The notes: generated by a model from the sequence alone, not told the origin. Counted from the stretch's first letter, positions 45,982-56,021 are shown. The stretch is DNA of 64,000 bases from Acidimicrobiia bacterium (GCA_036374335.1 DASUUC010000063.1:42811-106810), one strand, 5' to 3'. Made by a program: numbers and translations.

Positions 45982-47580
45982 GTGACCTCAGGATCATCGC
46001 CGGACCGGGACAAAGTCCGGTCCGCCGAGATCGTCGCATCGCTCTGCCTGGCCACTGACATCGGGATGGGTTTCCCCTTCGAACACGGGTTCCACGCCAC
46101 CCTGATGGCGATGCGACTCGCCGACCTCATGCACGTGGACGAAGAGACGAAGAGGCATACCTACTACGCCTGTCTCATGACCTATATGGGCTGCACCACC
46201 GACGCCTTCGTGGGGTCCCGGGTCTTCGCCGGCCCGCAGACCGAGAACTTCATTCCCTATCTCTTCGGGTCGACTACCGAGAAGGCCAGAGGAGCGTTGC
46301 GCGCCATGCCGCCGCCCGATGCCAGCGGTGCGCGTCGGCTCTACGAAACCGCGAAGCGGATCCCACGAGCCCTCGCCGAGAACAAGAACCACCAGCGGTC
46401 ACTGTGTGAGGTGGCCGAGAGGTTCTCCCGTCGCCTCGGAATGTCCGCCGAGTACACACAAATGTTCTATTACTTCACCGAGCGGTGGGATGGAAGTGGC
46501 TTGCTGGGCCGCGCGGCGGCCGACGAGATACCTATGCCGCTGCGAATCGGCATGATCGCCAGGGACATCGCCTTTCAACGTCTGATCGGGGGCGAAGACC
46601 ACGCACTGGGCACGGTGACCAGGCGAGGAGGTCACGCCTTCGACCCTGACATCGTCAAGGTCTTCGCCCGGAATGCCGGCGAGGTGTTCGAGGCGGGACG
46701 CCCGGGCGACTCGGCGTGGAAGTCGATCCTGTCCGCCGAACCCTGGCCGCACCTGTACGTCGAGGACGACGGGGTCGATCGCGCCCTCGCCGCGATCGCC
46801 GACTTCGCCGACCTGCTCACACCTTCCCTGGCCGGTCACTCATCGGGAGTGGCAGGTCTCGCCGAGCGAGCAGCACGCGTCGCCGGCTTCGGTGCGGACG
46901 ATGTGTCGAGTGTTCGCTGGGCGGCGCTGATCCACGACGTGGGGCGGGTGGCGGTGAGTGCAGCTGTCTGGGAGAAGCCAGGGGCCCTGACCGCCGACGA
47001 ACTGGAACAGGTCAGGTTGCACCCATATCACGCAGAACGTGCCTTCGCCCGAAGCCCGTTCCTGGCGGATCTGGCCGAGTTGGCGTGTTGTCATCATGAG
47101 TATCTCGACGGGTCCGGCTATCACCGTGGGTTGACCGCACAGACCATGAACCACAGGTCGCGCCTCATAGCCGCAGCCGACACATTGCACGCCCTCACCG
47201 AACCAAGGGCCTACCGGGACCCGCTGGAGGCCGAACAGGCAACCGACATCGTGGTCGCAAAGGCCAACTCAGGTCTTCTCGATCCGGTCATGGTTCGGGC
47301 AGTGGTCGAGGCGTCCGGGGAGCCCACGCCACAGGTAGAGCACCCGGCCGGTCTCACCGAGCGCGAGGTCGAGGTATTGGGGCTGCTGGCAAGAGGTCTG
47401 CAAACCAAACAGATCGCCCACCACTTCGAGGTCTCGCCGAAGACGGTCGATACTCACATCCAGGCGGCATATCGCAAGATCGGGGTGTCGACCCGGGCCG
47501 CAGCCACCCTCTATGCCATGGAGCACGGGCTCATACCCTCGGGAGAATTCCCGATCGTCAGCCGGAGGTTCACTCCTTAG
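45982..47580 (+). CDS. Tandem HD-GYP-type domains (first degenerate) fused to a LuxR-type HTH
   Basis: The second domain has HD (LIHDVGRV) and HHEYLDGSGYHRG (GYP is replaced by GYH). The first domain is degenerate (LATDIGM..FTERWDGSG). The C-terminus is LTEREVEVLGLLARGLQTKQIAHHFEVSPKTVDTHIQAAYRKIGV. Confidence 0.8.
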   Translation: MTSGSSPDRDKVRSAEIVASLCLATDIGMGFPFEHGFHATLMAMRLADLMHVDEETKRHTYYACLMTYMGCTTDAFVGSRVFAGPQTENFIPYLFGSTTEKARGALRAMPPPDASGARRLYETAKRIPRALAENKNHQRSLCEVAERFSRRLGMSAEYTQMFYYFTERWDGSGLLGRAAADEIPMPLRIGMIARDIAFQRLIGGEDHALGTVTRRGGHAFDPDIVKVFARNAGEVFEAGRPGDSAWKSILSAEPWPHLYVEDDGVDRALAAIADFADLLTPSLAGHSSGVAGLAERAARVAGFGADDVSSVRWAALIHDVGRVAVSAAVWEKPGALTADELEQVRLHPYHAERAFARSPFLADLAELACCHHEYLDGSGYHRGLTAQTMNHRSRLIAAADTLHALTEPRAYRDPLEAEQATDIVVAKANSGLLDPVMVRAVVEASGEPTPQVEHPAGLTEREVEVLGLLARGLQTKQIAHHFEVSPKTVDTHIQAAYRKIGVSTRAAATLYAMEHGLIPSGEFPIVSRRFTP

Positions 47581-47683
47581 CTTTGATGACGGAGTCCCGG
47601 CTGTCCCCGGCGGTTTGCTCACAACCGACCTGAACGTCGGGTCCGGCACCAAGCAATGATCGGCGAAGGGTGAGGAGCAATAC

Positions 47684-48604
47684 ATGTCGAGACAAGACTT
47701 TCTCGAGGCACAAGAGCGCGTGTTCCGGCGCTACGGCGTGAATTCCGAGTCCCGCCTGGTCGCGGTTCCCAGCATCGCAGGGCATGCCCACGTCATCGTC
47801 ACCGGCGAAGGACCTCCGGTCTTCATGGTCATCGGAGGTGGGATCGTGGCCGGAACCTGGGCACCACTCATGGCCGAGCTCACCGGCTACACGCTGCATG
47901 CGGTCGATCTCCCCGGTCAAGGGCTCACCGACCCCACTCGATTAGCGGTCGGGAACTTCCGGACGGCTGCTGTTTCCTTCCTCGAACAGGTGATGGACGG
48001 TCTGGACCTGGAGACGGCCCCCTTTGTCGGCCAGTCCACCGGTGGCACATGGTCGACATGGATGGCTCTGGATCGACCCGAGCGCGTGTCCGCGATCTCC
48101 TACGTAGCGTGCCCCGCGGCCATCCTGGGAACCTCTGCCCCGTTCCCGCTCAGACTGGGGACGATCCCTTGGATCAACCGCCTCGTCCGTCGCCTCGATC
48201 CGCCCTCGACGAAGCAGGTGGAACGTCTGGGAAAGATGGCCGGCGAGCCCCTGAGCGACAAGCCGGAGCTCCGCGATCTCATGCTCGAGTACCAGCGGCT
48301 TCCCGGGACGGATGCCTCATTGCTGGAAATGCACCGGGCCCTCGTCCGGCTGCGCGGACCCCAACCGGCCACAGAGATGACCGAGAGCCAAATCGCCCGG
48401 GTGGCCACGCCCGTCCAGTTCATCTGGGGCGAGAACGACCCGTTCGGACCGCCCTCGGTCGGGGTCCGGGCGGTCGAGGTCATGCCCGCGGCCGAGCTCC
48501 ATGTCGTCCCCGGAGGACATGCACCCTGGTTCGGTCACCCGGAAGGAGTGGGCGCCATCGTGAGACCATTCCTCGCCAAGCACACGACAGGAGTACACAC
48601 ATGA
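47684..48604 (+). CDS. Alpha/beta hydrolase
   Basis: 306 aa with a nucleophile elbow GQSTGG and the C-terminal ..VPGGHAPW. Its stop overlaps the next start (ATGA). Confidence 0.8.
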   Translation: MSRQDFLEAQERVFRRYGVNSESRLVAVPSIAGHAHVIVTGEGPPVFMVIGGGIVAGTWAPLMAELTGYTLHAVDLPGQGLTDPTRLAVGNFRTAAVSFLEQVMDGLDLETAPFVGQSTGGTWSTWMALDRPERVSAISYVACPAAILGTSAPFPLRLGTIPWINRLVRRLDPPSTKQVERLGKMAGEPLSDKPELRDLMLEYQRLPGTDASLLEMHRALVRLRGPQPATEMTESQIARVATPVQFIWGENDPFGPPSVGVRAVEVMPAAELHVVPGGHAPWFGHPEGVGAIVRPFLAKHTTGVHT

Positions 48605-49701
48605 GCCAGACGGTCAACACCATCGTTATCGGAGGCGGCCAGGCCGGACTGGCCACCGGATACCAGCTGAAGCGACTGGGGGTGGATCACGTCATCCTGG
48701 ACGAGAATGAGGATGTCGGGGCGGCCTGGAGGAAAAGGTGGGACTCGCTGCGTCTGTTCACCCCGGGTCGATACAGCGTCCTTCCCGGTATGCCCTTCCA
48801 GGGCCCGCCCCACTCCTTGCTCGGAAAGGACGACATCGCCGACTATCTCCAGCATTACGCGGACAGGTTTGATCTTCCGGTGAGGACGGGTGTCAAGGTG
48901 GACCAGGTCACCGCCGACGGTGATCGGTTGGTCGTTGAGGCAGGTGACGACCGGATATTGGCGGACAACGTGGTGGTGGCGACAGGAGCCTTCCACAATC
49001 CCCGTGTTCCGGACTTCGCCGACACGTTGGATCCGAGCATCATCCAGATGCACTCCTCCGACTACCGGAGACCATCGCAGATCCAGGAGGGTCCGGTCCT
49101 CGTGGTGGGCGCCGGCCAATCGGGCGCCGAAATCGCCCTCGACTTGATCAGGGACCATGAGGTGTGGCTTTCGGGCGAAGACCGTGGAGAGCAGCCCGCC
49201 GGGCCCGGCCCAGTCGCTGATCGGATCGTCGAGCCAATCATGGTGTTCGCGGCCACCAAGGTGATCAACGTGGCCAACCCGATCGGGCGAAAGGTGCGCG
49301 ATCACTTCCTCTACCCGCCCCGGGGGATTCCGCGCGCCGGCGGAACACGAAAAACGATTCTCGAATCCGGCATCGAGTGGGTGGGGAGGACTACAGGGAC
49401 AAAAGAGGGTCACCCCGAGTTGGAGGACGGCAGGGTTCTGGAGGTGGACAACGTCATCTGGTGCACCGGTTTCGTACCTGACTACTCATGGATCGACTTC
49501 CCGATCTTCGACGGCTTCGGGTATCCGATCCACGAACGAGGAGTGGTCGCATCCCAACCCGGTCTCTACTTCATGGGGCTGTTGTTCCAGCGCACCCTGA
49601 GCTCTGCCCTGATCATGGGCGTGGGCAAGGACGCCGCATACGTCGCGGAACATATCAGGCACCGCCAGCCGGCAAGGCACCCCAGCGACGTCGTCCACTA
49701 G
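48601..49701 (+). CDS. FAD/NAD(P)-binding flavin monooxygenase-like oxidoreductase
   Basis: It starts at MSQTVNTIVIGGGQAGLATG (ATG 48601). A second dinucleotide fold is present (VLVVGAGQSGAEIA). The 48049-48600 part of the tracked ORF overlaps the hydrolase out of frame. Confidence 0.8.
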   Translation: MSQTVNTIVIGGGQAGLATGYQLKRLGVDHVILDENEDVGAAWRKRWDSLRLFTPGRYSVLPGMPFQGPPHSLLGKDDIADYLQHYADRFDLPVRTGVKVDQVTADGDRLVVEAGDDRILADNVVVATGAFHNPRVPDFADTLDPSIIQMHSSDYRRPSQIQEGPVLVVGAGQSGAEIALDLIRDHEVWLSGEDRGEQPAGPGPVADRIVEPIMVFAATKVINVANPIGRKVRDHFLYPPRGIPRAGGTRKTILESGIEWVGRTTGTKEGHPELEDGRVLEVDNVIWCTGFVPDYSWIDFPIFDGFGYPIHERGVVASQPGLYFMGLLFQRTLSSALIMGVGKDAAYVAEHIRHRQPARHPSDVVH

Positions 49702-49735: not shown

Positions 49736-49969
49736 TTGGTCCAGGCGTATGTCCTGATCCAGACGGAGGTCGGTAAGGCAGCCGTCGTTGCAGAGGAAGT
49801 CCGTAACATCCCGGGTGTGGACACGGCCGACGATGTAACCGGTCCCTACGACGTGATCGTGCGGGCGAGTAGTGAAGACGTCGACTCACTCGGCAAGCTC
49901 GTCGTTGCTCGCATCCAGGCGGTCGACGGGATCACCCGAACCCTCACCTGTCCCGTAGTACACCTCTAA
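49736..49969 (+). CDS. Stand-alone Lrp/AsnC ligand-binding (RAM) domain protein
   Basis: 77 aa, with a TTG start 8 nt after AGGAGG. VQAYVLIQTEVGK...V..I.GV.....VTGPYDVIV. Confidence 0.75.
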   Translation: MVQAYVLIQTEVGKAAVVAEEVRNIPGVDTADDVTGPYDVIVRASSEDVDSLGKLVVARIQAVDGITRTLTCPVVHL

Positions 49970-50053: not shown

Positions 50054-51130
50054 CTAGCCGAGTTTCGAGGCGATCGTCCCGGCACTGCGTAGTGCCGTCC
50101 CGTCGCTGCCCGCGGTGGAAAAGACCCGGGTGCGCCCGCCGGCTGCCTCTGCGAGCATGTCCTTGAACAACTGAGCCCGCTCGATGGTCGGATCGACCCA
50201 GAGATAGACGGCCATCGAGCCGGGAATCGTGTTCACCTCGTTTACGAACAACTCGCCGCCCTTTTCGAGGAAGTCGATGCGGGCGATCCCTCGCAGCCCG
50301 GCGACATCGGTGACCCGCTGCGACAGGTCGGCGATGCCCTGAGCGATCGAATCCTCGAGGCTGGCGGGCAGCTCCCTCCCCCCGGTGACCTCACCGCCCC
50401 AAGCCAGGTACTTCTGGTCGTAGCTGTAGATGCCACCCTCGGCCCGCAGCGGCGCCTCGACAGCAGACATCTCCCACCGGGGATAGGTGCGAACGGCCAC
50501 CTGCAGATCGCGGCTCCCCGTGAAGAACGGCTCAACGACGGCTCCCTGGTCGAAGAAGCGCGAGGACGACTTGAGAGCCGTGACCGTGCTCCAGTCCTCG
50601 GCGATCTCGATACCGATCGAAGATCCACCGAACCGGGGCTTGACGATATAAGGGCCCTCGAAGTCGGGTGCCTCCTGATCCCCCTTGGTCACCAACGTCC
50701 GAGGCAGAGTGGGCAGGCCGGCCGCCGCCATGGCCGCCCCGAACGCCAGCTTGTCCATGCCCAGGGCAGATGCGGCTTGACCTGGGCCCGTGTAGCGAAG
50801 ACCGGCGAGGTCGAACAGTCCCTGCAGTGTGCCGTCCTCGCCCGGCCCCCCGTGACAGGCGATGAGCACCGCGTCGAGATCGAGCGGCTTTCTCTTCATC
50901 ACAAATCCCTGACCTGGCGCCGCCACGAACGCCATCTCCCGAGCTTTGCGGGGGGCACCGTCGATGAAGTCGACAGCCTCGGATTCAGGATCGACCGAAT
51001 ACCACTCGCCCGACTTCGTCCAATAGATGGCCTCGATGTCCTCGAGCGCCCTGGCTACCTGGAGACCGGTCAGTATGGAGATGTCGTGCTCGTCGGAGGG
51101 GCCTCCGAACACAACTGCTGATCTGCTCAT
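50054..51130 (-). CDS. ddl: D-alanine--D-alanine ligase family ATP-grasp enzyme
   Basis: It starts at MSRSAVVFGGPSDEHDISILTG. Other motifs are HGGPGEDGTLQGLFDLAG, KPRFGGSSIGI, ARIDFL and VNEVNTIPG. It lies 13 nt downstream of the MurF-like gene. Confidence 0.8.
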   Translation of the reverse strand: MSRSAVVFGGPSDEHDISILTGLQVARALEDIEAIYWTKSGEWYSVDPESEAVDFIDGAPRKAREMAFVAAPGQGFVMKRKPLDLDAVLIACHGGPGEDGTLQGLFDLAGLRYTGPGQAASALGMDKLAFGAAMAAAGLPTLPRTLVTKGDQEAPDFEGPYIVKPRFGGSSIGIEIAEDWSTVTALKSSSRFFDQGAVVEPFFTGSRDLQVAVRTYPRWEMSAVEAPLRAEGGIYSYDQKYLAWGGEVTGGRELPASLEDSIAQGIADLSQRVTDVAGLRGIARIDFLEKGGELFVNEVNTIPGSMAVYLWVDPTIERAQLFKDMLAEAAGGRTRVFSTAGSDGTALRSAGTIASKLG

Positions 51131-51143
51131 ATTCGACTCATGC

Positions 51144-52616
51144 TCAGGGATAGTGGTCAGGGAGATCGTTCTCGTAAAGAACCGCGTCGCCCACACCGAG
51201 ATTGGCCCGGGCCCACTCGACGGCCTCGTCTCGTGAGGCGACGACGGTAACTGAAGCCTTCCCGTGGGCGGAACCCTCGCGCAGGGGCTTGCGGTTGGTG
51301 CGTCCCACGATCACCAGATGATCGACGCGCGACGCCGACTCCTCGGCGAACGCACGATTCTCCTCGTACTGGACGGGGCCGAGCTCGACCATGCCCGGGG
51401 TGATGACTGCGGTCCGTCCCTGAGCGCCCACCTCTGTCAGCAGCTCCAGAGCAGAGCGCGCCCCGGCCGGGTTCGAGTTGAAGGTGTCGTCGATGATGGT
51501 GAATCCGGCCACCCCGGTGGTGACCGACTGGCGATGCTCTGCGGTCGGCAGATCGGCCGCTCGTGCGATCACCTCATCCGGATCGACACCGAGTGCTCTG
51601 CAAATCCCGAGGGCCACAGCGAGATTTGCCCCAAAGACACCGTCGGGGACATCCATCACGCCAGCTCCGGAGACCGCGATACGGTTGCCGGCAGACACCT
51701 CGACTATCTCCTTCGTCGCCGCTCTATCTTCCGCAACCTGGGCAAGCAGGGGATGGTCAACGCAAATCACCCCGATCTCGGCGCGCTCGAGGATCTCCGC
51801 CTTGGATCGGACGATGTTCTCCAGGGTCTTGAAACGCTCCAGATGGACCGGCCCGATGGCCACTATTGCACCCACCTTCGGCGGGATCCACTCACACAAC
51901 TCGGCGATCTCACCCGGCCCATATGTGCCCATCTCCGCGACGAAGACCTCGGTGCCAGGTGTGAGATTCTCGTTGATCGCTCTCGCCAGACCCATGCGGT
52001 TGTTGAACGAGGCCGGGCTGGCAACGACTCGTTTGGTCCCGGCGAGCAGGTGGGCGACATAGTTCTTGGTGGTGGTCTTGCCATAGGAGCCGGTGATGGC
52101 AACCACGTCCAGATCCATGGACCGCAGCGTGGCAGCCGCCTTCTCGACCCATTTGGCACCCAACCGTTTTTCGTATGGCGCCAGGACCCAGAGCGAAATG
52201 TCGACAACGACGTAGACGAGGTGAACTGGCACCACGATGAGGAGGGCGAGATCGAGGAGGGCGCCCGCGGTGAAAGCCGAGATGAGGATGGCGGCGACGG
52301 TGATGGCGAGACGACGGAGTCGATCGGTCCAGGCCAGCGGCGAGGTCCGTCCTTTCAGGGACAGCCCGATGGGCCAGAGGGCAGCGACCACAGGAACGAT
52401 GACGGCCCAGCGGGCATCGAGAATCAGCATGGCGACGATTCCGAACAGGCTCACCAAATCGAGAACGAAGTTGAGCAGTGAGCTACGCCGCCATCGATCG
52501 GCGAACGTGCTCGCCGAGCCAGGCAGATAGTGCTCGCGTTGGGCCACCCGGAGCCAGCGCAGCCCGGCCAGAACGGAGACAGCAGCGCATGCCATCGCAA
52601 GGAGCCAGAACATCAC
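51144..52616 (-). CDS. Membrane-anchored MurF-like Mur ligase (N-terminal 4-5 TM segments replace the UDP-MurNAc-binding domain)
   Basis: The first ~150 aa are hydrophobic helices. The Mur ligase central and C-terminal domains follow (ITGSYGKTTTKNY, NNRMGLA, EMGTYGPGEI, DDTFNSNP). Its start overlaps the upstream hydrolase stop. Confidence 0.8.
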   Translation of the reverse strand: MMFWLLAMACAAVSVLAGLRWLRVAQREHYLPGSASTFADRWRRSSLLNFVLDLVSLFGIVAMLILDARWAVIVPVVAALWPIGLSLKGRTSPLAWTDRLRRLAITVAAILISAFTAGALLDLALLIVVPVHLVYVVVDISLWVLAPYEKRLGAKWVEKAAATLRSMDLDVVAITGSYGKTTTKNYVAHLLAGTKRVVASPASFNNRMGLARAINENLTPGTEVFVAEMGTYGPGEIAELCEWIPPKVGAIVAIGPVHLERFKTLENIVRSKAEILERAEIGVICVDHPLLAQVAEDRAATKEIVEVSAGNRIAVSGAGVMDVPDGVFGANLAVALGICRALGVDPDEVIARAADLPTAEHRQSVTTGVAGFTIIDDTFNSNPAGARSALELLTEVGAQGRTAVITPGMVELGPVQYEENRAFAEESASRVDHLVIVGRTNRKPLREGSAHGKASVTVVASRDEAVEWARANLGVGDAVLYENDLPDHYP

Positions 52617-53347
52617 AGGGCTTCCTCGATGGCGTTGCGCAGGGCGCCGGGTGCCTGCATCGGCACCAAGTGTCCCACCCCCGGGAGGACTTCGAGAGTT
52701 GCCTTCTCGATGAGCCGTTCACCAGCATGGGCAACCGCGACCGGCACTTCGGTGTCTTCGGCACCCCAGATCAGCCGGACCGGGTTGCTGATCTCCGAGA
52801 GCTGGGATTCGTACGACTCGTTGACGACCTTGACCAGAATGTCCCTCATCACCCCGCTTGCCGACCGGTAGTCAGCCGAACCGCGGCGTCTCTTCTCCTG
52901 TTCCAAGCGCTGGTCGGAGACGATGCCGACACGGTTGAGCCATCGGACCAATCGATAGCCGATCTCGGGGGTCCGGGGCCTCTGGAGACGGATCAGCGGA
53001 ACGCCGGTCAACACCAGCGGCCCAACCCGATCGGGTTGTTTGGCAGCGAGACAAACCGCGATCCTCCCTCCGAAGGAGTGTCCGACCAGGACCGGCGGCC
53101 TATCGAACGAATCCAGGAGTTGCGACACAATATCCGCGTAGGCGTCTGCGCCGATGACCCCTGTTGGTGCGGGCGTCGCCCCGAATCCCGGGAGGTCGGG
53201 AGCGATGCCGGAAAATCCCTCGAGAACCGCTGCAAAGTCCCTCCCCCGTCGCCCCCACCCATGCAAAGCCAGAACGTTCGGAGACCCCTCGCCGTACACC
53301 TCGGCGAAGAGCGCGCCGTCAAGAAAAGAGCGCAGAGCCAATAACAA
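52613..53347 (-). CDS. Alpha/beta hydrolase (first gene of the hydrolase/MurF-like/Ddl-like operon)
   Basis: LALHGWGRRG, a nucleophile elbow GHSFGG, and the C-terminal GVGHLVP. A TTG start at 53347 preceded by GAGGA is favoured. The ORF is open up to 53434, which would overlap the kinase gene. Confidence 0.75.
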   Translation of the reverse strand: MLLALRSFLDGALFAEVYGEGSPNVLALHGWGRRGRDFAAVLEGFSGIAPDLPGFGATPAPTGVIGADAYADIVSQLLDSFDRPPVLVGHSFGGRIAVCLAAKQPDRVGPLVLTGVPLIRLQRPRTPEIGYRLVRWLNRVGIVSDQRLEQEKRRRGSADYRSASGVMRDILVKVVNESYESQLSEISNPVRLIWGAEDTEVPVAVAHAGERLIEKATLEVLPGVGHLVPMQAPGALRNAIEEAL

Positions 53348-53401: not shown

Positions 53402-55216
53402 ATGACCAACGACATGCTGAGCGCAAGCGTCCACGAGTCGATGGCCCGATTCAGGTCGTCGCTGCTTCGTCGCGCTTCGGCCGTGGCCTGGGTGGTGCTC
53501 ATCATCATCGGCTACCAGGCGGTGCGCAGCCCGCTGCCAGATGGCACACAGTTGTTCACCCGGCCCCAGTTCTACATTCCAATGTCCGGACTGGCGTTGC
53601 TGCTGATCCTCTCCTCGGCGTTGCGATGGGATCGGATCATGCGCTCCCCTGCCGCTCCTTGGGCTGCCACCGGCTGGCTACTGGGGATGATCGCCGGGCT
53701 GTCAGGCCTCGCCCTGATTCCCGACCTCAATGCCACCACCGAACCGGTGCTGTTCGGGATGGCCGCAGTGTCGGGTCTCTTGTTGGTCTGGTGGACCCAC
53801 GGCCTGGTGACCGTGATCATCAGCCTGGCCATCGCCTTCATCAACTTCGGCCTCGGCGAGGCCAATGTGATCGCAGACGTCCTCGCCCCCATCGTCGTGG
53901 TCCTGGTCGTCGCAGCGGCTACGGCACTCGTCGGCTTTGAATTCGAGAGGGAGGCGGTCACCTCGTTCTCCAACGAGGCCAAGCTGGAACAGCAACGTCT
54001 CGACTTCGAGCGTCTCTACGCGGTCAGTGCCACCCTCGCCCGAGCCGAGTCGTTGGCAGAGATCGTCCCCCACCTGGTGGGCACGATCTGCAAATACCTC
54101 GACGCCCAGGTGGGAGTGGTCCTGCTCAACGATCAACAGTTGCAGCGTCTCGAAGTGATGAGCCCGATCTGGGTCAACGGGTATCCGCTGGAAACCGATC
54201 CGATTTCGGTTGAGATCAATGCACCAAGTGTGGTTGCGCAGACCTATAGAGCTGCCAAACCCATCTACGTCAAACGGGTCGACGAGGACACCGAGTCACA
54301 CATCCTGTTGAAGGACCTCGGGCTGAAACAAGCTCTGGTCGCCCCGCTGAAAGTCGAGTCGATGAGAGTTGGCGTCATCGTGGTCGGCGACCCCTACGAG
54401 GGCGACTTCTCCGAAGATCAGCTCGAGCAGCTCGGCTCCCTGGCCGCCCCTGCCGGTCTCGTCCTCAGCCAAATCGGGCGATACGAGGCCCAAGCCGAGA
54501 TGACCCGCCGTCTCGAGGAAGTGGCACAAATGAAGACCGATTTCGTCTCCACGGTCAGCCACGAGCTGCGCAGCCCACTCACTTCGATCATCGGGTCGCT
54601 GGACACCGTCAACCGTCCCGAGCTGGCCCCTCAGGAGCCGATGTCTCAACAACTCCTGGTGAGTGCGCGTCGCCAGGCGGGACGTCTCCAGCGTCTCATC
54701 GAGGACCTCCTGGTCGTGTCTCGCATAGATCGCGGTGTGATTCCGGTCCATCCGGAGGTGGTCGAGGTCAAGGAGATCTTCGACGAGGTCAACCGGGTGG
54801 TGTCGATCGAGCCCACCTCGACGGTGGAGCCGGCCAACCTCGCGGTGTACGCCGACCGGGATCACTTCCAGCGAATCCTCATCAACCTGGTTGAGAACGC
54901 CGCCAAGTACGCGCCCGACTCGCCGGTCGAGCTCTACGCCTGGCAAAAGGGGAACCGGGCGATGATGGCGGTTGTCGACCACGGCCCGGGGATTCCGGAG
55001 ACCTCACGAGAGAGCATCTTCGAGCGTTTCACCCAGCTCGACCAGTCTGACACCAGATCGAGAGGGGGCACAGGCCTCGGCCTGTCCATCGTGAAGAGCC
55101 TCACCGAGGTCATGCAGGGGTCGGTCCGTGTCGAGGCCACTGAAGGCGGTGGAGCCACGTTCCTCGTCGACCTGCCCGCTGCGACATCCGAAGGGATGCC
55201 TGCCGCCCGGTACTAG
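53402..55216 (+). CDS. Sensor histidine kinase (multi-TM + GAF + HisKA + HATPase_c), no adjacent response regulator
   Basis: About 5 N-terminal TM segments, a GAF-like region, the H-box SHELRSPLTSI, the N-box LINLVENAAKY, and G-boxes DHGPGI / GGTGLGLSIV. The start may be 53402, 53414 or 53444. Confidence 0.88.
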   Translation: MTNDMLSASVHESMARFRSSLLRRASAVAWVVLIIIGYQAVRSPLPDGTQLFTRPQFYIPMSGLALLLILSSALRWDRIMRSPAAPWAATGWLLGMIAGLSGLALIPDLNATTEPVLFGMAAVSGLLLVWWTHGLVTVIISLAIAFINFGLGEANVIADVLAPIVVVLVVAAATALVGFEFEREAVTSFSNEAKLEQQRLDFERLYAVSATLARAESLAEIVPHLVGTICKYLDAQVGVVLLNDQQLQRLEVMSPIWVNGYPLETDPISVEINAPSVVAQTYRAAKPIYVKRVDEDTESHILLKDLGLKQALVAPLKVESMRVGVIVVGDPYEGDFSEDQLEQLGSLAAPAGLVLSQIGRYEAQAEMTRRLEEVAQMKTDFVSTVSHELRSPLTSIIGSLDTVNRPELAPQEPMSQQLLVSARRQAGRLQRLIEDLLVVSRIDRGVIPVHPEVVEVKEIFDEVNRVVSIEPTSTVEPANLAVYADRDHFQRILINLVENAAKYAPDSPVELYAWQKGNRAMMAVVDHGPGIPETSRESIFERFTQLDQSDTRSRGGTGLGLSIVKSLTEVMQGSVRVEATEGGGATFLVDLPAATSEGMPAARY

Positions 55217-55223
55217 TGGTCGA

Positions 55224-56021
55224 CTAAGCCTGGTCGTCCTCTGGTCCGACTCCAGCCGCGATGGCGTGGAAGCCACCGTCGACATGGACTATCTCCCCCG
55301 ACGTCATCTTCGCCCAATCGCTGAGCAGGACGCAGACCATGCGCGCCACCGGGTCGGGATCAGAGGTGTCCCATCTCAGCGGCGACCTTTCGCTCCACAC
55401 CTCGTCGAACCTGGCAAACCCTGGAATGGACTTGGCAGCGACGGTGCTCAGGGGTCCCGCTGACACCGCGTTGACCCGTATATGGTGTGGGCCCAGGTCA
55501 CGGGCGAGGTATCGGGTCACACTCTGCAGAGCCGACTTGGCCACGCCCATCCAGTCGTATGCGGGCCACGCTTGGCTGTTGTCGAAGTCCATTGCCACGA
55601 GAGCACCGCCCCCCGCCTTCTCCAACAGCGGTAACAAGCCAACTGCCAGCGTCTTGTACGAGAAAGCCGAAACCGTGAACGCGGTCTGAGCCGACTCGAC
55701 TGGCGTATTGAGGAAGTTGCCTCCCAGGGCGTCGTCGGGAGCGAAGGCAATGGCGTGCAATGCACCGTCAACCCGCCCCCAGCGGCTGTCGAGGTCGCCG
55801 ACCACGGCTTCGACATGGCCGGGATCGTTGATGTCGAGCTCGAGGACGTCACAGGGCTCTGGGAGTCGTTGCACCGACCGCTCGGTGAGCCGCAAACCCC
55901 GCCCAAAACCGGTGCAGACCACTTCCGCGCCTTCCTCCTGGGCGACCCGCGCGGTGTGCCAGGCGATCGAGTCGTCGGTGAGCACACCGGTGATGAGAAG
56001 TTTCTTGTCTTCGAGCAGCAT
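55224..56021 (-). CDS. fabI: Enoyl-[acyl-carrier-protein] reductase (NADH), FabI/InhA type
   Basis: LEDKKLLITGVLTDDSIAWHTARVAQEEGAEVVCTGF.. is closely colinear with the recalled InhA N-terminus. 265 aa. Confidence 0.88.
   Translation of the reverse strand: MLLEDKKLLITGVLTDDSIAWHTARVAQEEGAEVVCTGFGRGLRLTERSVQRLPEPCDVLELDINDPGHVEAVVGDLDSRWGRVDGALHAIAFAPDDALGGNFLNTPVESAQTAFTVSAFSYKTLAVGLLPLLEKAGGGALVAMDFDNSQAWPAYDWMGVAKSALQSVTRYLARDLGPHHIRVNAVSAGPLSTVAAKSIPGFARFDEVWSERSPLRWDTSDPDPVARMVCVLLSDWAKMTSGEIVHVDGGFHAIAAGVGPEDDQA

What the first reader, a model, noticed from the sequence alone, without database searches (positions are those of the whole stretch)
50054..53347. Operon of alpha/beta hydrolase + membrane-anchored MurF-like ligase lacking the UDP-binding domain + Ddl-like ATP-grasp enzyme
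Three minus-strand genes are tightly linked, with a 4-nt overlap and then a 13-nt gap. The middle protein has a complete Mur-ligase central and C-terminal domain (ITGSYGKTTTKNY, NNRMGLA, DDTFNSNP). The ~80-aa N-domain that in MurF holds the UDP-MurNAc-tripeptide nucleotide is replaced by ~150 aa forming 4-5 TM helices. The downstream gene is a Ddl-family ATP-grasp ligase with all the usual motifs. No other dcw genes (mraY, murD, murG, ftsW) occur in the window. A Mur ligase plus an ATP-grasp enzyme parallels cyanophycin synthetase, and PgsB is a membrane-associated Mur-like ligase. The trio could therefore add a D-Ala-D-Ala-type dipeptide to a membrane-associated, non-UDP acceptor, with the hydrolase trimming or recycling it. 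A divergent orphan GAF histidine kinase sits next door.
Basis: partly seen in the sequence, partly recalled or inferred. Interest (0 to 1): 0.65.

Follow-up and report, generated by a model that had tools for sequence, protein, structure and literature searches.

The report
Membrane-anchored MurF–Ddl–hydrolase cell-wall module
The three genes are a real, ancient and very widespread cell-wall module, most likely this bacterium's way of adding D-Ala-D-Ala to the peptidoglycan precursor, in which MurF has swapped its nucleotide-sugar-binding head for a membrane domain and always travels with an unexplained serine hydrolase.

Summary
Three co-directional, translationally coupled genes encode an alpha/beta serine hydrolase, a MurF-like ligase and a Ddl. 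In the ligase, a conserved 5-helix membrane domain replaces the first ~64 positions of the MurF model. The membrane domain is not a mis-called extension: it is homologous across phyla and models at pLDDT 93.6.

The trio is not an Acidimicrobiia oddity. The same hydrolase–TM-ligase–Ddl module occurs in 160 fetched loci with GC from 26 to 72%, from Acidimicrobiia, other Actinomycetota, Bacteroidales/Muribaculaceae, Poribacteria and unnamed metagenomic lineages.

In four independent loci the module sits inside the dcw cluster in the murF slot (murE–HYD–TM-ligase–Ddl–mraY), with no canonical murF in the cluster. The Ddl is the Helicobacter pylori type (PDB 2PVP). The hydrolase's best family match is H. 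pylori EstV. Campylobacter jejuni has ddl, an alpha/beta hydrolase and murF as neighbours, and the hydrolase is possibly essential.

The best reading is a housekeeping D-Ala-D-Ala branch built on a membrane-tethered MurF. One locus carries a canonical murF, a VanX-like dipeptidase and the module together. The hydrolase's role and the ligase's acceptor are open. I could not test whether a canonical murF lies elsewhere in this genome.

The parts
52613..53347 (-). EstV-like alpha/beta serine hydrolase, ~244 aa and cytoplasmic (no signal peptide). It has an HGW oxyanion motif, a GHSFGG nucleophile elbow (Ser91), Asp198 and His226, plus a family-specific lid motif GSxDY...R.
   Evidence: Pfam Abhydrolase_1/6. 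The best NCBIfam match is the EstV family lipase at 84.8 bits, below the 300-bit cutoff. The triad and lid motif are invariant or at least 95% conserved in 69 orthologues from all phyla. The gene lies directly upstream of the ligase in 72/75 and 55/64 readable loci.
52137..52616 (-). N-terminal membrane domain of the ligase (aa 1-160). It has five predicted TM helices, probably N-out/C-in, and two conserved K/R-rich cytoplasmic loops. Family-wide invariants are Q26, Y30, W42, T97, R99, P147 and E149 (motifs LRWLRVAQREHY and SPLAWTxRLRR).
   Evidence: Hydropathy. AlphaFold pLDDT is 88-98 per 10-residue block over this region. A profile of this domain finds 342 clusters at 50% identity, in nearly all full-length hits at the N-terminus of ~500-aa proteins. 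The invariants hold across phyla. hhalign of the actinobacterial profile against the Bacteroidales/Poribacteria profile gives 95.8% probability, E 7e-9. No Pfam family covers it.
51144..52136 (-). MurF-type ligase body. It comprises a linker helix, the central ATP-binding domain (P-loop GSYGKTTTK) and the C-terminal domain. The protein ends in the family-specific YENDLPDHYP.
   Evidence: Pfam Mur_ligase_M and Mur_ligase_C. TIGR01143 scores 168.8 bits on model positions 65-402. PDB sequence search and Foldseek both rank MurF structures first. BLAST on the ligase part alone gives 143-396 bits against other TM-type ligases, 54-160 bits against canonical MurF and under 80 bits against MurE/D/C.
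50054..51130 (-). Helicobacter-type D-alanine--D-alanine ligase, 358 aa. All ATP-grasp and Ddl catalytic residues and K215-Y216 are kept. The loop after the NTxPG motif is altered (PGSMAVYLW).
   Evidence: Pfam Dala_Dala_lig_N/C. TIGR01205 scores 195.1 bits, below the 245.65 cutoff. Residue table. The window segment aligns without gaps to PDB 2pvp, H. pylori Ddl. A Ddl lies directly downstream of the ligase in 61/71 and 35/60 readable loci.

Best explanation
The trio is the Acidimicrobiia copy of an old, widely distributed three-gene module that carries out the D-Ala-D-Ala branch of peptidoglycan precursor synthesis.

Proposed steps:
1. The Helicobacter-type Ddl condenses two D-alanines.
2. 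The MurF-type ligase activates the stem-peptide carboxylate of UDP-MurNAc-tripeptide with ATP and adds the dipeptide. It is held at the inner face of the membrane by a 5-helix domain, whose two conserved basic cytoplasmic loops stand in for the lost N-domain.
3. The pentapeptide product is released next to MraY.
4. The EstV-like serine hydrolase is a catalytically competent, translationally coupled partner with an unknown role. Candidates are proofreading or trimming of wrong precursors, or an activity needed by the ligase complex.

Shown here: the gene architecture, the homology, the conservation, the intact catalytic residues and the placement in the murF slot in other phyla.

Inferred: the substrates, complex formation, and that this is the organism's working MurF and Ddl.
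For: 1. MurF is the nearest family for the ligase body by HMM, by PDB sequence search and by fold. MurF-type motifs (NNxxG, EMGxxxxGEI, HLExF, DDT(F/Y)NSNP, GMVELG) are invariant or nearly invariant across the family. On the ligase part alone, non-actinobacterial members are as similar to canonical MurFs (120-160 bits) as canonical MurFs are to each other (146-151 bits).

2. In Poribacteria (L067, L078) and in metagenome loci L092 and L102 the order is ftsI-murE-HYD-TM-ligase-Ddl-mraY. L067, L078 and L092 continue murD-ftsW-murG-murC. There is no canonical murF or second ddl in the cluster. Other loci put the module next to mraY or ftsW (L097, L108, L140, L141).

3. The Poribacteria and Bacteroidales Ddl partners pass NCBI's curated Ddl cutoffs: 342.9 and 333.8 bits against 262.

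4. The window Ddl keeps E15, K97, K144, S150, K215, Y216, R255, D257, E270 and N272. Tyr216 is the dipeptide-type residue.

5. It shares its distinctive C-terminal motif with H. pylori Ddl, PDB 2pvp.

6. In C. jejuni, ddl (Cj0798c), an alpha/beta hydrolase (Cj0796c) and murF (Cj0795c) are neighbours. Attempts to delete Cj0796c failed (PMC5530802). H. pylori MurF is called essential and co-purifies with the membrane protein Csd5 (PMC9507126). Its gene is 1485 bp, about 40 codons longer than E. coli murF.

7. In the window the trio lies in the conserved rpmB-recG-rsmD-coaD-plsX-rnc-mutM region. That is the classical actinobacterial ddlA neighbourhood; compare gpsA/thiL/recG around the module in Nocardioides L050.

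8. In Muribaculaceae the gene is a very abundant core chromosomal gene.
Against: 1. The window ligase and Ddl score below NCBI's curated MurF and Ddl cutoffs: 168.8 against 288.6, and 195.1 against 245.65.

2. The part of MurF that helps hold the UDP moiety is missing, so recognition of UDP-MurNAc-tripeptide is an assumption.

3. Locus L104 has a full canonical murF (388 bits), a VanX/DdpX-like dipeptidase, the hydrolase and the TM-ligase in one dcw operon. The TM-ligase is therefore not always the only MurF.

4. In Nocardioides and three other actinobacterial loci a second Ddl-like gene lies nearby, directly beside the module in L034, L041 and L050.

5. The reported H. pylori Ddl kinetics are anomalous: Km for the second D-Ala is 627 mM (PMC6899670).

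6. I could not determine whether a canonical murF or ddl exists elsewhere in this genome.

7. I could not verify with sequence that the Helicobacter and Campylobacter MurF carry the membrane domain.

8. This model does not require a universally linked active hydrolase.
Confidence: 0.58

Rival explanations
1. The membrane domain binds a lipid-linked or otherwise membrane-bound acceptor, for example undecaprenyl-pyrophosphoryl-MurNAc-tripeptide (a lipid I lacking D-Ala-D-Ala). The ligase would add the dipeptide after, not before, the MraY step. The hydrolase would act on the same membrane-proximal substrate.
For: The N-domain that contacts the nucleotide in canonical MurF is gone. A polytopic domain replaces it, with invariant polar and basic residues in loops facing the ligase. 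There is a precedent in MurT, a Mur-ligase homologue named in the PDB as 'Lipid II isoglutaminyl synthase subunit MurT'; it appears among distant matches. One family member is paired with a PF04185 phosphoesterase instead of the alpha/beta hydrolase (L005). The hydrolase profile's best PDB match is 6i8w, which I recall, from memory only, to be the membrane phospholipase PlaF. Position next to mraY fits either order of steps.
Against: No direct evidence. The ligase body is as MurF-like as canonical MurFs are to each other. The module replaces murF between murE and mraY without any other change in the cluster. A membrane anchor alone explains tethering to MraY. The phosphoesterase pairing is a single case.
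Confidence: 0.17
2. The module is a self-contained precursor-remodelling system. Its Ddl would prefer a second substrate other than D-Ala. The dedicated ligase would add that D-Ala-D-X unit. The hydrolase would remove ordinary precursors or dipeptide, playing the part of VanX or VanY. The result would be an altered stem-peptide terminus, either constitutive or conditional.
For: A VanX/DdpX-like dipeptidase with an SPHNTGGAVD stretch, which I recognise from memory as VanX-type metal-binding, lies between canonical murF and the module in L104. A Peptidase_M15 gene follows the module in L007. These are two unrelated lineages. H. pylori Ddl has a very poor Km for the second D-Ala. The loop that binds the second substrate's carboxylate is remodelled in every module Ddl. 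The module coexists with canonical murF (L104) and with second Ddl-like genes (L034, L041, L050, L064).
Against: Only 2 of about 168 loci have such a dipeptidase. The module Ddl keeps Lys215-Tyr216, typical of dipeptide ligases, and its Poribacteria and Bacteroidales members pass the Ddl, not the Van, NCBIfam cutoffs. No VanH or VanRS is in the window. From my own knowledge, not tested here: Helicobacter and Campylobacter peptidoglycan carries ordinary D-Ala-D-Ala pentapeptides, and Wu et al. 2008 reported that HpDdl complements an E. coli ddl mutant.
Confidence: 0.13
3. Annotation artefact. The transmembrane stretch would be a mis-called 5' extension of an ordinary or degenerate murF, and the gene linkage would be coincidental.
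For: High-GC genomes produce long spurious ORF extensions. The hydrolase's longest ORF is indeed over-extended by 29 codons.
Against: The 160-aa N-domain is conserved residue by residue in hundreds of clusters and across phyla. It models with very high confidence. Its start is coupled to the stop of the upstream gene. The gene order is kept in 160 loci.
Confidence: 0.01

Closest known systems
[quoted passage not shown]
   Same: The central ATP-binding and C-terminal domains, the P-loop and the MurF-type motifs are shared. MurF is the best HMM, sequence and fold match. The module occupies the same slot between murE and mraY in several lineages.
   Different: The first ~64 model positions (the N-domain) are replaced by a conserved 5-TM domain. 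The C-terminal end motif is YENDLPD(H/T)Y; from memory, canonical MurF has (V/I)KGSR here. The window protein scores below the curated cutoff. It is always accompanied by an alpha/beta hydrolase.
Helicobacter pylori Ddl (HpDdl, PDB 2PVP; Wu et al. 2008, cited in PMC6899670)
   Same: The remodelled loop after NTxPG is the same: HpDdl NEINPIPGSLANYLFDD against window NEVNTIPGSMAVYLWVD, aligned without gaps. The catalytic residues are the same.
   Different: Overall similarity is modest: 96 bits over residues 5-313. The window protein has not been assayed. HpDdl's reported Km2 of 627 mM has no explanation yet.
EstV (H. pylori family V carboxylesterase) and C. jejuni Cj0796c
   Same: EstV family is the best NCBIfam match. 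The fold is alpha/beta hydrolase with a Ser-Asp-His triad. In C. jejuni the homologous neighbourhood holds ddl and murF, and the hydrolase may be essential.
   Different: The window protein scores far below the EstV equivalog cutoff (84.8 against 300 bits). EstV is known only as a short-chain esterase on artificial substrates (PMC3741291). No physiological substrate is known for any member.
MurT/GatD (lipid II isoglutaminyl synthase)
   Same: MurT is a Mur-ligase homologue that lacks the UDP-binding N-domain, works on a membrane-linked precursor and needs a hydrolytic partner subunit.
   Different: The relationship is only distant: PDB E 7e-5 and Foldseek rank 35 or lower. MurT has a DUF1727 C-domain, no TM domain, and a glutaminase partner rather than an alpha/beta hydrolase.
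Cyanophycin synthetase and PgsB/CapB
   Same: These are Mur-ligase-type domains combined with an ATP-grasp activity (CphA) or with membrane association (PgsB).
   Different: The cyanophycin synthetase model scores 16.8 bits against a cutoff of 850, and no PgsB/CapB model hits. The ATP-grasp partner here is a bona fide Ddl-type enzyme and a separate protein.

Membership tests
MurF (TIGR01143 / Mur ligase family) | Mur ligase central ATP-binding domain with P-loop, plus the C-terminal domain | tested here: met
   PF08245 scores 90.1 bits and PF02875 53.2 bits, both above their cutoffs. GSYGKTTTK is invariant.
MurF (TIGR01143 / Mur ligase family) | MurF N-terminal domain (model positions 1-64; PF01225-type) | tested here: not met
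   The alignment starts at model position 65, which is residue 160. There is no PF01225 hit. The canonical MurF of L104 aligns from model position 1.
MurF (TIGR01143 / Mur ligase family) | Whole-protein score at or above NCBI's curated cutoff (288.6 bits) | tested here: not met
   The window protein scores 168.8 bits. Relatives score 194.7-272.7 bits.
MurF (TIGR01143 / Mur ligase family) | MurF is the nearest Mur ligase by sequence and by fold | tested here: met
   The top 8 PDB sequence matches are MurF or MurF-containing chains. Foldseek ranks 1-10 are all MurF.
MurF (TIGR01143 / Mur ligase family) | Genomic role: the gene between murE and mraY in dcw clusters | tested here: inconclusive
   Met for orthologues in L067, L078, L092 and L102. 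Not met in the window, where the trio lies in the ddlA/recG region. In L104 it lies downstream of a canonical murF.
MurF (TIGR01143 / Mur ligase family) | Catalyses UDP-MurNAc-tripeptide + D-Ala-D-Ala + ATP to give the pentapeptide | not testable with these tools
   This needs an enzyme assay or complementation.
D-alanine--D-alanine ligase (TIGR01205 / NF002528) | Ddl N- and C-terminal (ATP-grasp) domains and catalytic residues | tested here: met
   PF01820 scores 82.2 bits and PF07478 84.6 bits. E15, H63, K97, K144, S150, K215, Y216, R255, D257, E270, N272 and G276 are kept.
D-alanine--D-alanine ligase (TIGR01205 / NF002528) | Score at or above the curated cutoff | tested here: not met
   The window protein scores 195.1 against 245.65. 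The Poribacteria and Bacteroidales module Ddls pass, at 342.9 and 333.8 against 262.
D-alanine--D-alanine ligase (TIGR01205 / NF002528) | Canonical second-substrate loop (PG-xTxx-S-(L/M)) | tested here: not met
   It is replaced by PGSMAVYLW. The same remodelled loop is in H. pylori Ddl, PDB 2pvp.
EstV family lipase (NF058580) | Equivalog-level score (300 bits) | tested here: not met
   This is the best-scoring family, but at 84.8 bits. The L104 orthologue scores 127.8 bits.
Alpha/beta serine hydrolase | Nucleophile elbow GxSxG, acid and histidine, and an oxyanion motif | tested here: met
   HGW, GHSFGG (Ser91), Asp198 and His226 are invariant in 15 sequences and at least 95% conserved in 69.
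VanA-type glycopeptide-resistance cluster | VanH dehydrogenase, VanX dipeptidase, VanRS, and a ligase with a depsipeptide-type omega-loop residue | tested here: not met
   No such genes were seen in the ORFs around the trio. The Ddl has Lys215-Tyr216. Van NCBIfam models score far below their cutoffs. VanX-like genes occur in only 2 related loci.
Cyanophycin synthetase / PgsB-CapB | Family HMM match | tested here: not met
   cya_phycin_syn scores 16.8 bits against 850. No CapB/PgsB family is listed.

The most novel reading that the evidence does not exclude
The three proteins form a membrane-bound machine that differs mechanistically from textbook MurF. The polytopic domain would recognise the pyrophosphate-lipid (or another membrane-embedded) part of the acceptor, so the D-Ala-D-Ala step happens on a lipid-linked tripeptide. 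Alternatively the dipeptide would be channelled directly from a Ddl that is nearly inactive on its own. The always-present, possibly essential serine hydrolase would perform a so far unknown catalytic step in making the precursor. That would add a new step or a new order of steps to peptidoglycan precursor synthesis in Acidimicrobiia, Muribaculaceae, Poribacteria and probably Campylobacterota.
Probability: 0.2. Interest if true: 0.85.

Novelty: new variant of a known kind. Interest (0 to 1): 0.5.

Why it matters
MurF and Ddl are textbook essential enzymes and antibiotic targets. This work shows that a large, phylogenetically scattered set of bacteria uses a MurF whose substrate-holding N-domain is replaced by a conserved membrane domain. 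These bacteria include dominant gut Muribaculaceae, freshwater and soil Acidimicrobiia, sponge Poribacteria and, very probably, Helicobacter and Campylobacter. This MurF is almost always genetically welded to an active serine hydrolase of unknown function. Campylobacter workers could not delete that hydrolase.

This ties together three loose ends in the Helicobacter and Campylobacter literature:
- the odd kinetics of HpDdl;
- the 'lipase' EstV, which has no physiological substrate;
- MurF co-purifying with membrane proteins.

It also turns them into a testable hypothesis about a membrane-tethered three-enzyme complex. If the hydrolase or the membrane domain is essential, both are lineage-specific drug targets. 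For the window itself the practical result is an annotation: these are most likely the organism's murF and ddl plus an obligate partner, not an exotic pathway.

Tried and rejected
1. Canonical murF elsewhere in Acidimicrobiia. No tool gives access to whole genomes. Contig look-ups return only +/-10 kb. Protein searches list only the nearest 120 hits. The literature had nothing: 'Acidimicrobiia'+'murF' gave 0 papers, and dcw-evolution papers do not mention the class.

2. Hydrolase-ligase fusions (P0198, P0216, P0243). I considered them evidence of physical coupling and then down-weighted them. A cytoplasmic hydrolase fused to an N-out first helix is topologically awkward. There are only a few, and the 4-nt overlap makes frameshift artefacts likely.

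3. P0259 (894 aa) as a possible MurE fusion. Its contig is full of truncated genes, so I treat it as an assembly artefact.

4. Plasmid-borne or mobile module. No TM-type copy is in 72,556 plasmid records; only canonical murF is found.

5. A universal fourth partner. All-against-all clustering of neighbours found nothing beyond the trio; the next cluster occurs in at most 23 loci and looked to be local synteny from where its members lie.

6. Naming the low-GC gut lineage that carries the module. No source names were available.

7. Retrieving the EstV paper and Blair et al. 2018 to check the HP0738-0740 gene order and the MurF membrane helices. Neither paper is held.

8. Profile search of the hydrolase against the PDB. 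It returned only generic esterases and C-C hydrolases.

9. No tRNA or Rfam element is in the window.

Full report
**The observation.** The window holds three co-directional minus-strand genes.
- An alpha/beta hydrolase at 52613-53347. The longest ORF reaches 53434. That extension overlaps the divergent kinase start at 53402 and is absent from homologues.
- A 490-aa Mur ligase at 51144-52616.
- A 358-aa Ddl at 50054-51130.

Pfam finds Abhydrolase_1/6, Mur_ligase_M plus Mur_ligase_C, and Dala_Dala_lig_N/C. The NCBI MurF model aligns only from model position 65, at residue 160. It scores 168.8 bits against a cutoff of 288.6. Residues 1-147 form five hydrophobic helices. The two lysine/arginine-rich loops lie on the ligase side. 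tblastn with 13 E. coli dcw proteins finds nothing else in the window.

**The membrane domain is real.**
- Full-length homologues at 61-88% identity fill the first protein search. The named ones are Acidimicrobiia.
- The N-terminal 160 residues contain invariant motifs: LRWLRVAQREHY and SPLAWTxRLRR.
- A profile of this domain alone finds 342 clusters at 50% identity. In nearly all full-length hits it sits at the N-terminus of ~500-aa proteins.
- Pfam on six of those full-length proteins found Mur ligase domains in every one.
- AlphaFold gives pLDDT 93.6 and pTM 0.88.
- Foldseek and PDB sequence searches put MurF structures first. MurE, pseudomurein ligases, MurD, MurC, CphA and MurT come well behind.

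**The trio is a module, and it is widespread.** In Acidimicrobiia the hydrolase, ligase and Ddl are always together. In the closest relatives the GAF kinase and a FabI-like gene accompany them, inside a housekeeping region (rpmB, recG, rsmD, coaD, yceD, plsX, rnc, mutM). The window has the same synteny, plus a 3.7-kb insertion.

A scan of one genome per GTDB species returned 80 loci. The record titles name:
- Acidimicrobiia;
- other Actinomycetota: Nocardioides sp. YR527, Gulosibacter, Microbacteriaceae, Propionibacteriaceae, Frankiales and Egibacteraceae;
- Bacteroidales: Muribaculaceae, 'Bacteroides' and Porphyromonadaceae MAGs;
- an Acutalibacteraceae MAG;
- Candidatus Poribacteria.

A metagenome scan seeded with the Poribacteria and Bacteroidales forms gave 80 more loci, with GC from 26 to 72%.

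| Gene position | GTDB loci | Metagenome loci |
|---|---|---|
| Hydrolase directly upstream, same strand | 72 of 75 | 55 of 64 |
| Ddl directly downstream | 61 of 71 | 35 of 60 |
| Ddl anywhere in the locus | 64 of 71 | 50 of 60 |

Counts are of loci where the flank is readable. Clustering of all neighbouring ORFs found no fourth conserved partner.

The N-domains of the actinobacterial and the Bacteroidales/Poribacteria forms are homologous: hhalign gives 95.8% probability, E 7e-9, over 150 columns. They share the invariants Q26, Y30, W42, T97, R99, P147 and E149, and the C-terminal ENDLPD motif. On the ligase part alone:

| Comparison | BLAST bits |
|---|---|
| TM-type against TM-type, across phyla | 143-396 |
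| TM-type against canonical MurF | 54-160 |
| TM-type against MurE, MurD or MurC | under 80 |
| Canonical MurF against canonical MurF | 146-151 |

This is one old subfamily within MurF diversity.

**What the context says about function.** The most telling loci are L067 and L078 (two Poribacteria MAGs) and L092 and L102 (metagenomes, GC 0.38-0.40). Their order is rsmH-ftsI-murE-HYD-TM-ligase-Ddl-mraY. L067, L078 and L092 continue murD-ftsW-murG-murC-ftsA. There is no room for another murF, and no ddl between murC and ftsA. The extra ORF in L067 is a UPF0236 family gene, which I take to be a transposase. Other lineages place the module beside mraY or ftsW (L097, L108, L140, L141). The Ddl partners in Poribacteria and Bacteroidales pass NCBI's curated Ddl thresholds. 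In Muribaculaceae the gene is extremely common. One exact protein is indexed in 274 blocks of the collection, in ordinary chromosomal context next to an MltG/YceG gene. This is what one expects of a working MurF/Ddl pair.

**Links to studied organisms.**
- *Hydrolase.* Its best NCBIfam match is the H. pylori 'EstV family lipase'. EstV is known only as a short-chain carboxylesterase in vitro (PMC3741291).
- *Ddl.* The window Ddl's peculiar loop after NTxPG aligns without gaps to H. pylori Ddl, PDB 2pvp: NEINPIPGSLANYLFDD against NEVNTIPGSMAVYLWVD. A later study lists HpDdl as 'the least related Ddl', with Km1 1.89 mM and Km2 627 mM (PMC6899670).
- *Campylobacter gene order.* In C. jejuni, murF (Cj0795c), an alpha/beta-fold hydrolase (Cj0796c) and ddl (Cj0798c) are neighbours. 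The authors suspected a role in peptidoglycan synthesis. They could not delete Cj0796c (PMC5530802).
- *Helicobacter MurF.* H. pylori MurF is described as essential and co-purifies with the transmembrane protein Csd5 (PMC9507126). Its gene is 1485 bp, or 494 codons against 452 in E. coli.

Two points rest on memory or inference, not on a tool result: that HP0738-HP0739-HP0740 are ddlA-estV-murF, and that the Helicobacter and Campylobacter MurF carry the membrane domain.

**Evidence that complicates the simple reading.**
- *Coexistence with canonical murF.* Locus L104 (GC 0.44) reads ftsI, murE, a full canonical murF (TIGR01143 388 bits, aligned from model position 1), a VanX/DdpX-like dipeptidase, the hydrolase, then a TM-ligase (272.7 bits). 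The ORFs abut or overlap. The two kinds of MurF can therefore coexist. A D-Ala-D-Ala dipeptidase is linked to the module there and, independently, in the actinobacterial locus L007.
- *Nocardioides.* In Nocardioides sp. YR527 the module sits between gpsA and thiL/recG, the classical ddlA position. Beside it is a second, DdlB-like gene with unusual substitutions, K215R and N272A.
- *A different partner.* One family member is paired with a PF04185 phosphoesterase and has no Ddl nearby.
- *Active hydrolase.* The hydrolase keeps its oxyanion motif, Ser-Asp-His triad and a lid motif (GSxDY...R) in every phylum. It is an enzyme, not a scaffold, and nothing in the textbook pathway requires it.

**Verdict on mechanism.** I consider it most likely (about 0.58) that the trio is the organism's D-Ala-D-Ala branch. 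The Ddl makes the dipeptide. A membrane-tethered MurF adds it to UDP-MurNAc-tripeptide beside MraY. The hydrolase is an obligate accessory of unknown chemistry.

- *Shown:* the domain architecture, the homology and conserved residues, and the genomic placement.
- *Inferred:* the substrates and any physical complex.
- *Rivals:* the lipid-linked-acceptor version (about 0.17) and the altered-terminus or remodelling version (about 0.13). Both remain open because nobody has assayed this subfamily's ligase. The artefact reading is refuted.

**Limits.** I could not learn whether this genome, or Acidimicrobiia in general, also has a canonical murF or ddl. The tools give only +/-10 kb around a hit, and the literature is silent. 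That single check would move the probabilities most.

Noticed in passing
L104:3314-7534 (metagenome contig VAPH01058142.1): One dcw operon carries murE, a full canonical murF, a 205-aa VanX/DdpX-like D-Ala-D-Ala dipeptidase, the EstV-like hydrolase and a TM-type MurF. It may be an evolutionary intermediate or a two-route system.
   Followed up: partly
L050:12767-13723 (-), also L034:7917-9104, L041:8335-9288, L064:9547-10536: A second, DdlB-like gene lies near the module in four actinobacterial loci, directly beside it in L034, L041 and L050. It has K215R in all four, the metal-binding Asn272 replaced by Ala in all four, and S151A in three of the four. It scores just below the NCBI Ddl cutoffs. 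Its function is unclear.
   Followed up: partly
L005:8481-11548 and L006:1636-4703: A TM-type ligase 47% identical to the window's is coupled by a 1-nt overlap to a PF04185 phosphoesterase (I recall this to be the phospholipase C/acid phosphatase family) instead of the alpha/beta hydrolase. No Ddl lies within 10 kb.
   Followed up: no
L007:13563-13964: A Peptidase_M15 (VanX/VanY-type) gene lies two genes downstream of the module in a distant actinobacterial member found in a different genomic context (cysS, ispDF, carD).
   Followed up: partly
window 45982-49701: A 3.7-kb block is inserted here relative to related Acidimicrobiia contigs (L001-L003), between the AsnC-type regulator (49736-49966) and the CSD/rpmB/recG genes. 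It holds an HD_5 + LuxR (GerE) fusion protein, a second alpha/beta hydrolase (47684-48604) and a large ORF (within 48049-49701) that I did not run against any family library.
   Followed up: partly
window 53402-55216 (+) and 55224-56021 (-): A membrane GAF histidine kinase has no adjacent response regulator. It is conserved together with a FabI-like reductase only in the closest Acidimicrobiia relatives of the window. It is not part of the module elsewhere.
   Followed up: partly
L067:8475-9794: A UPF0236 family ORF, which I take to be a transposase, is inserted between the hydrolase and the TM-ligase in one Poribacteria dcw cluster. It splits the otherwise tightly coupled pair.
   Followed up: no
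L137 and proteins P0396-P0515: A very abundant, unnamed low-GC (26%) human-gut lineage carries the full module. No source gives it a name, so its taxon is unknown.
   Followed up: partly
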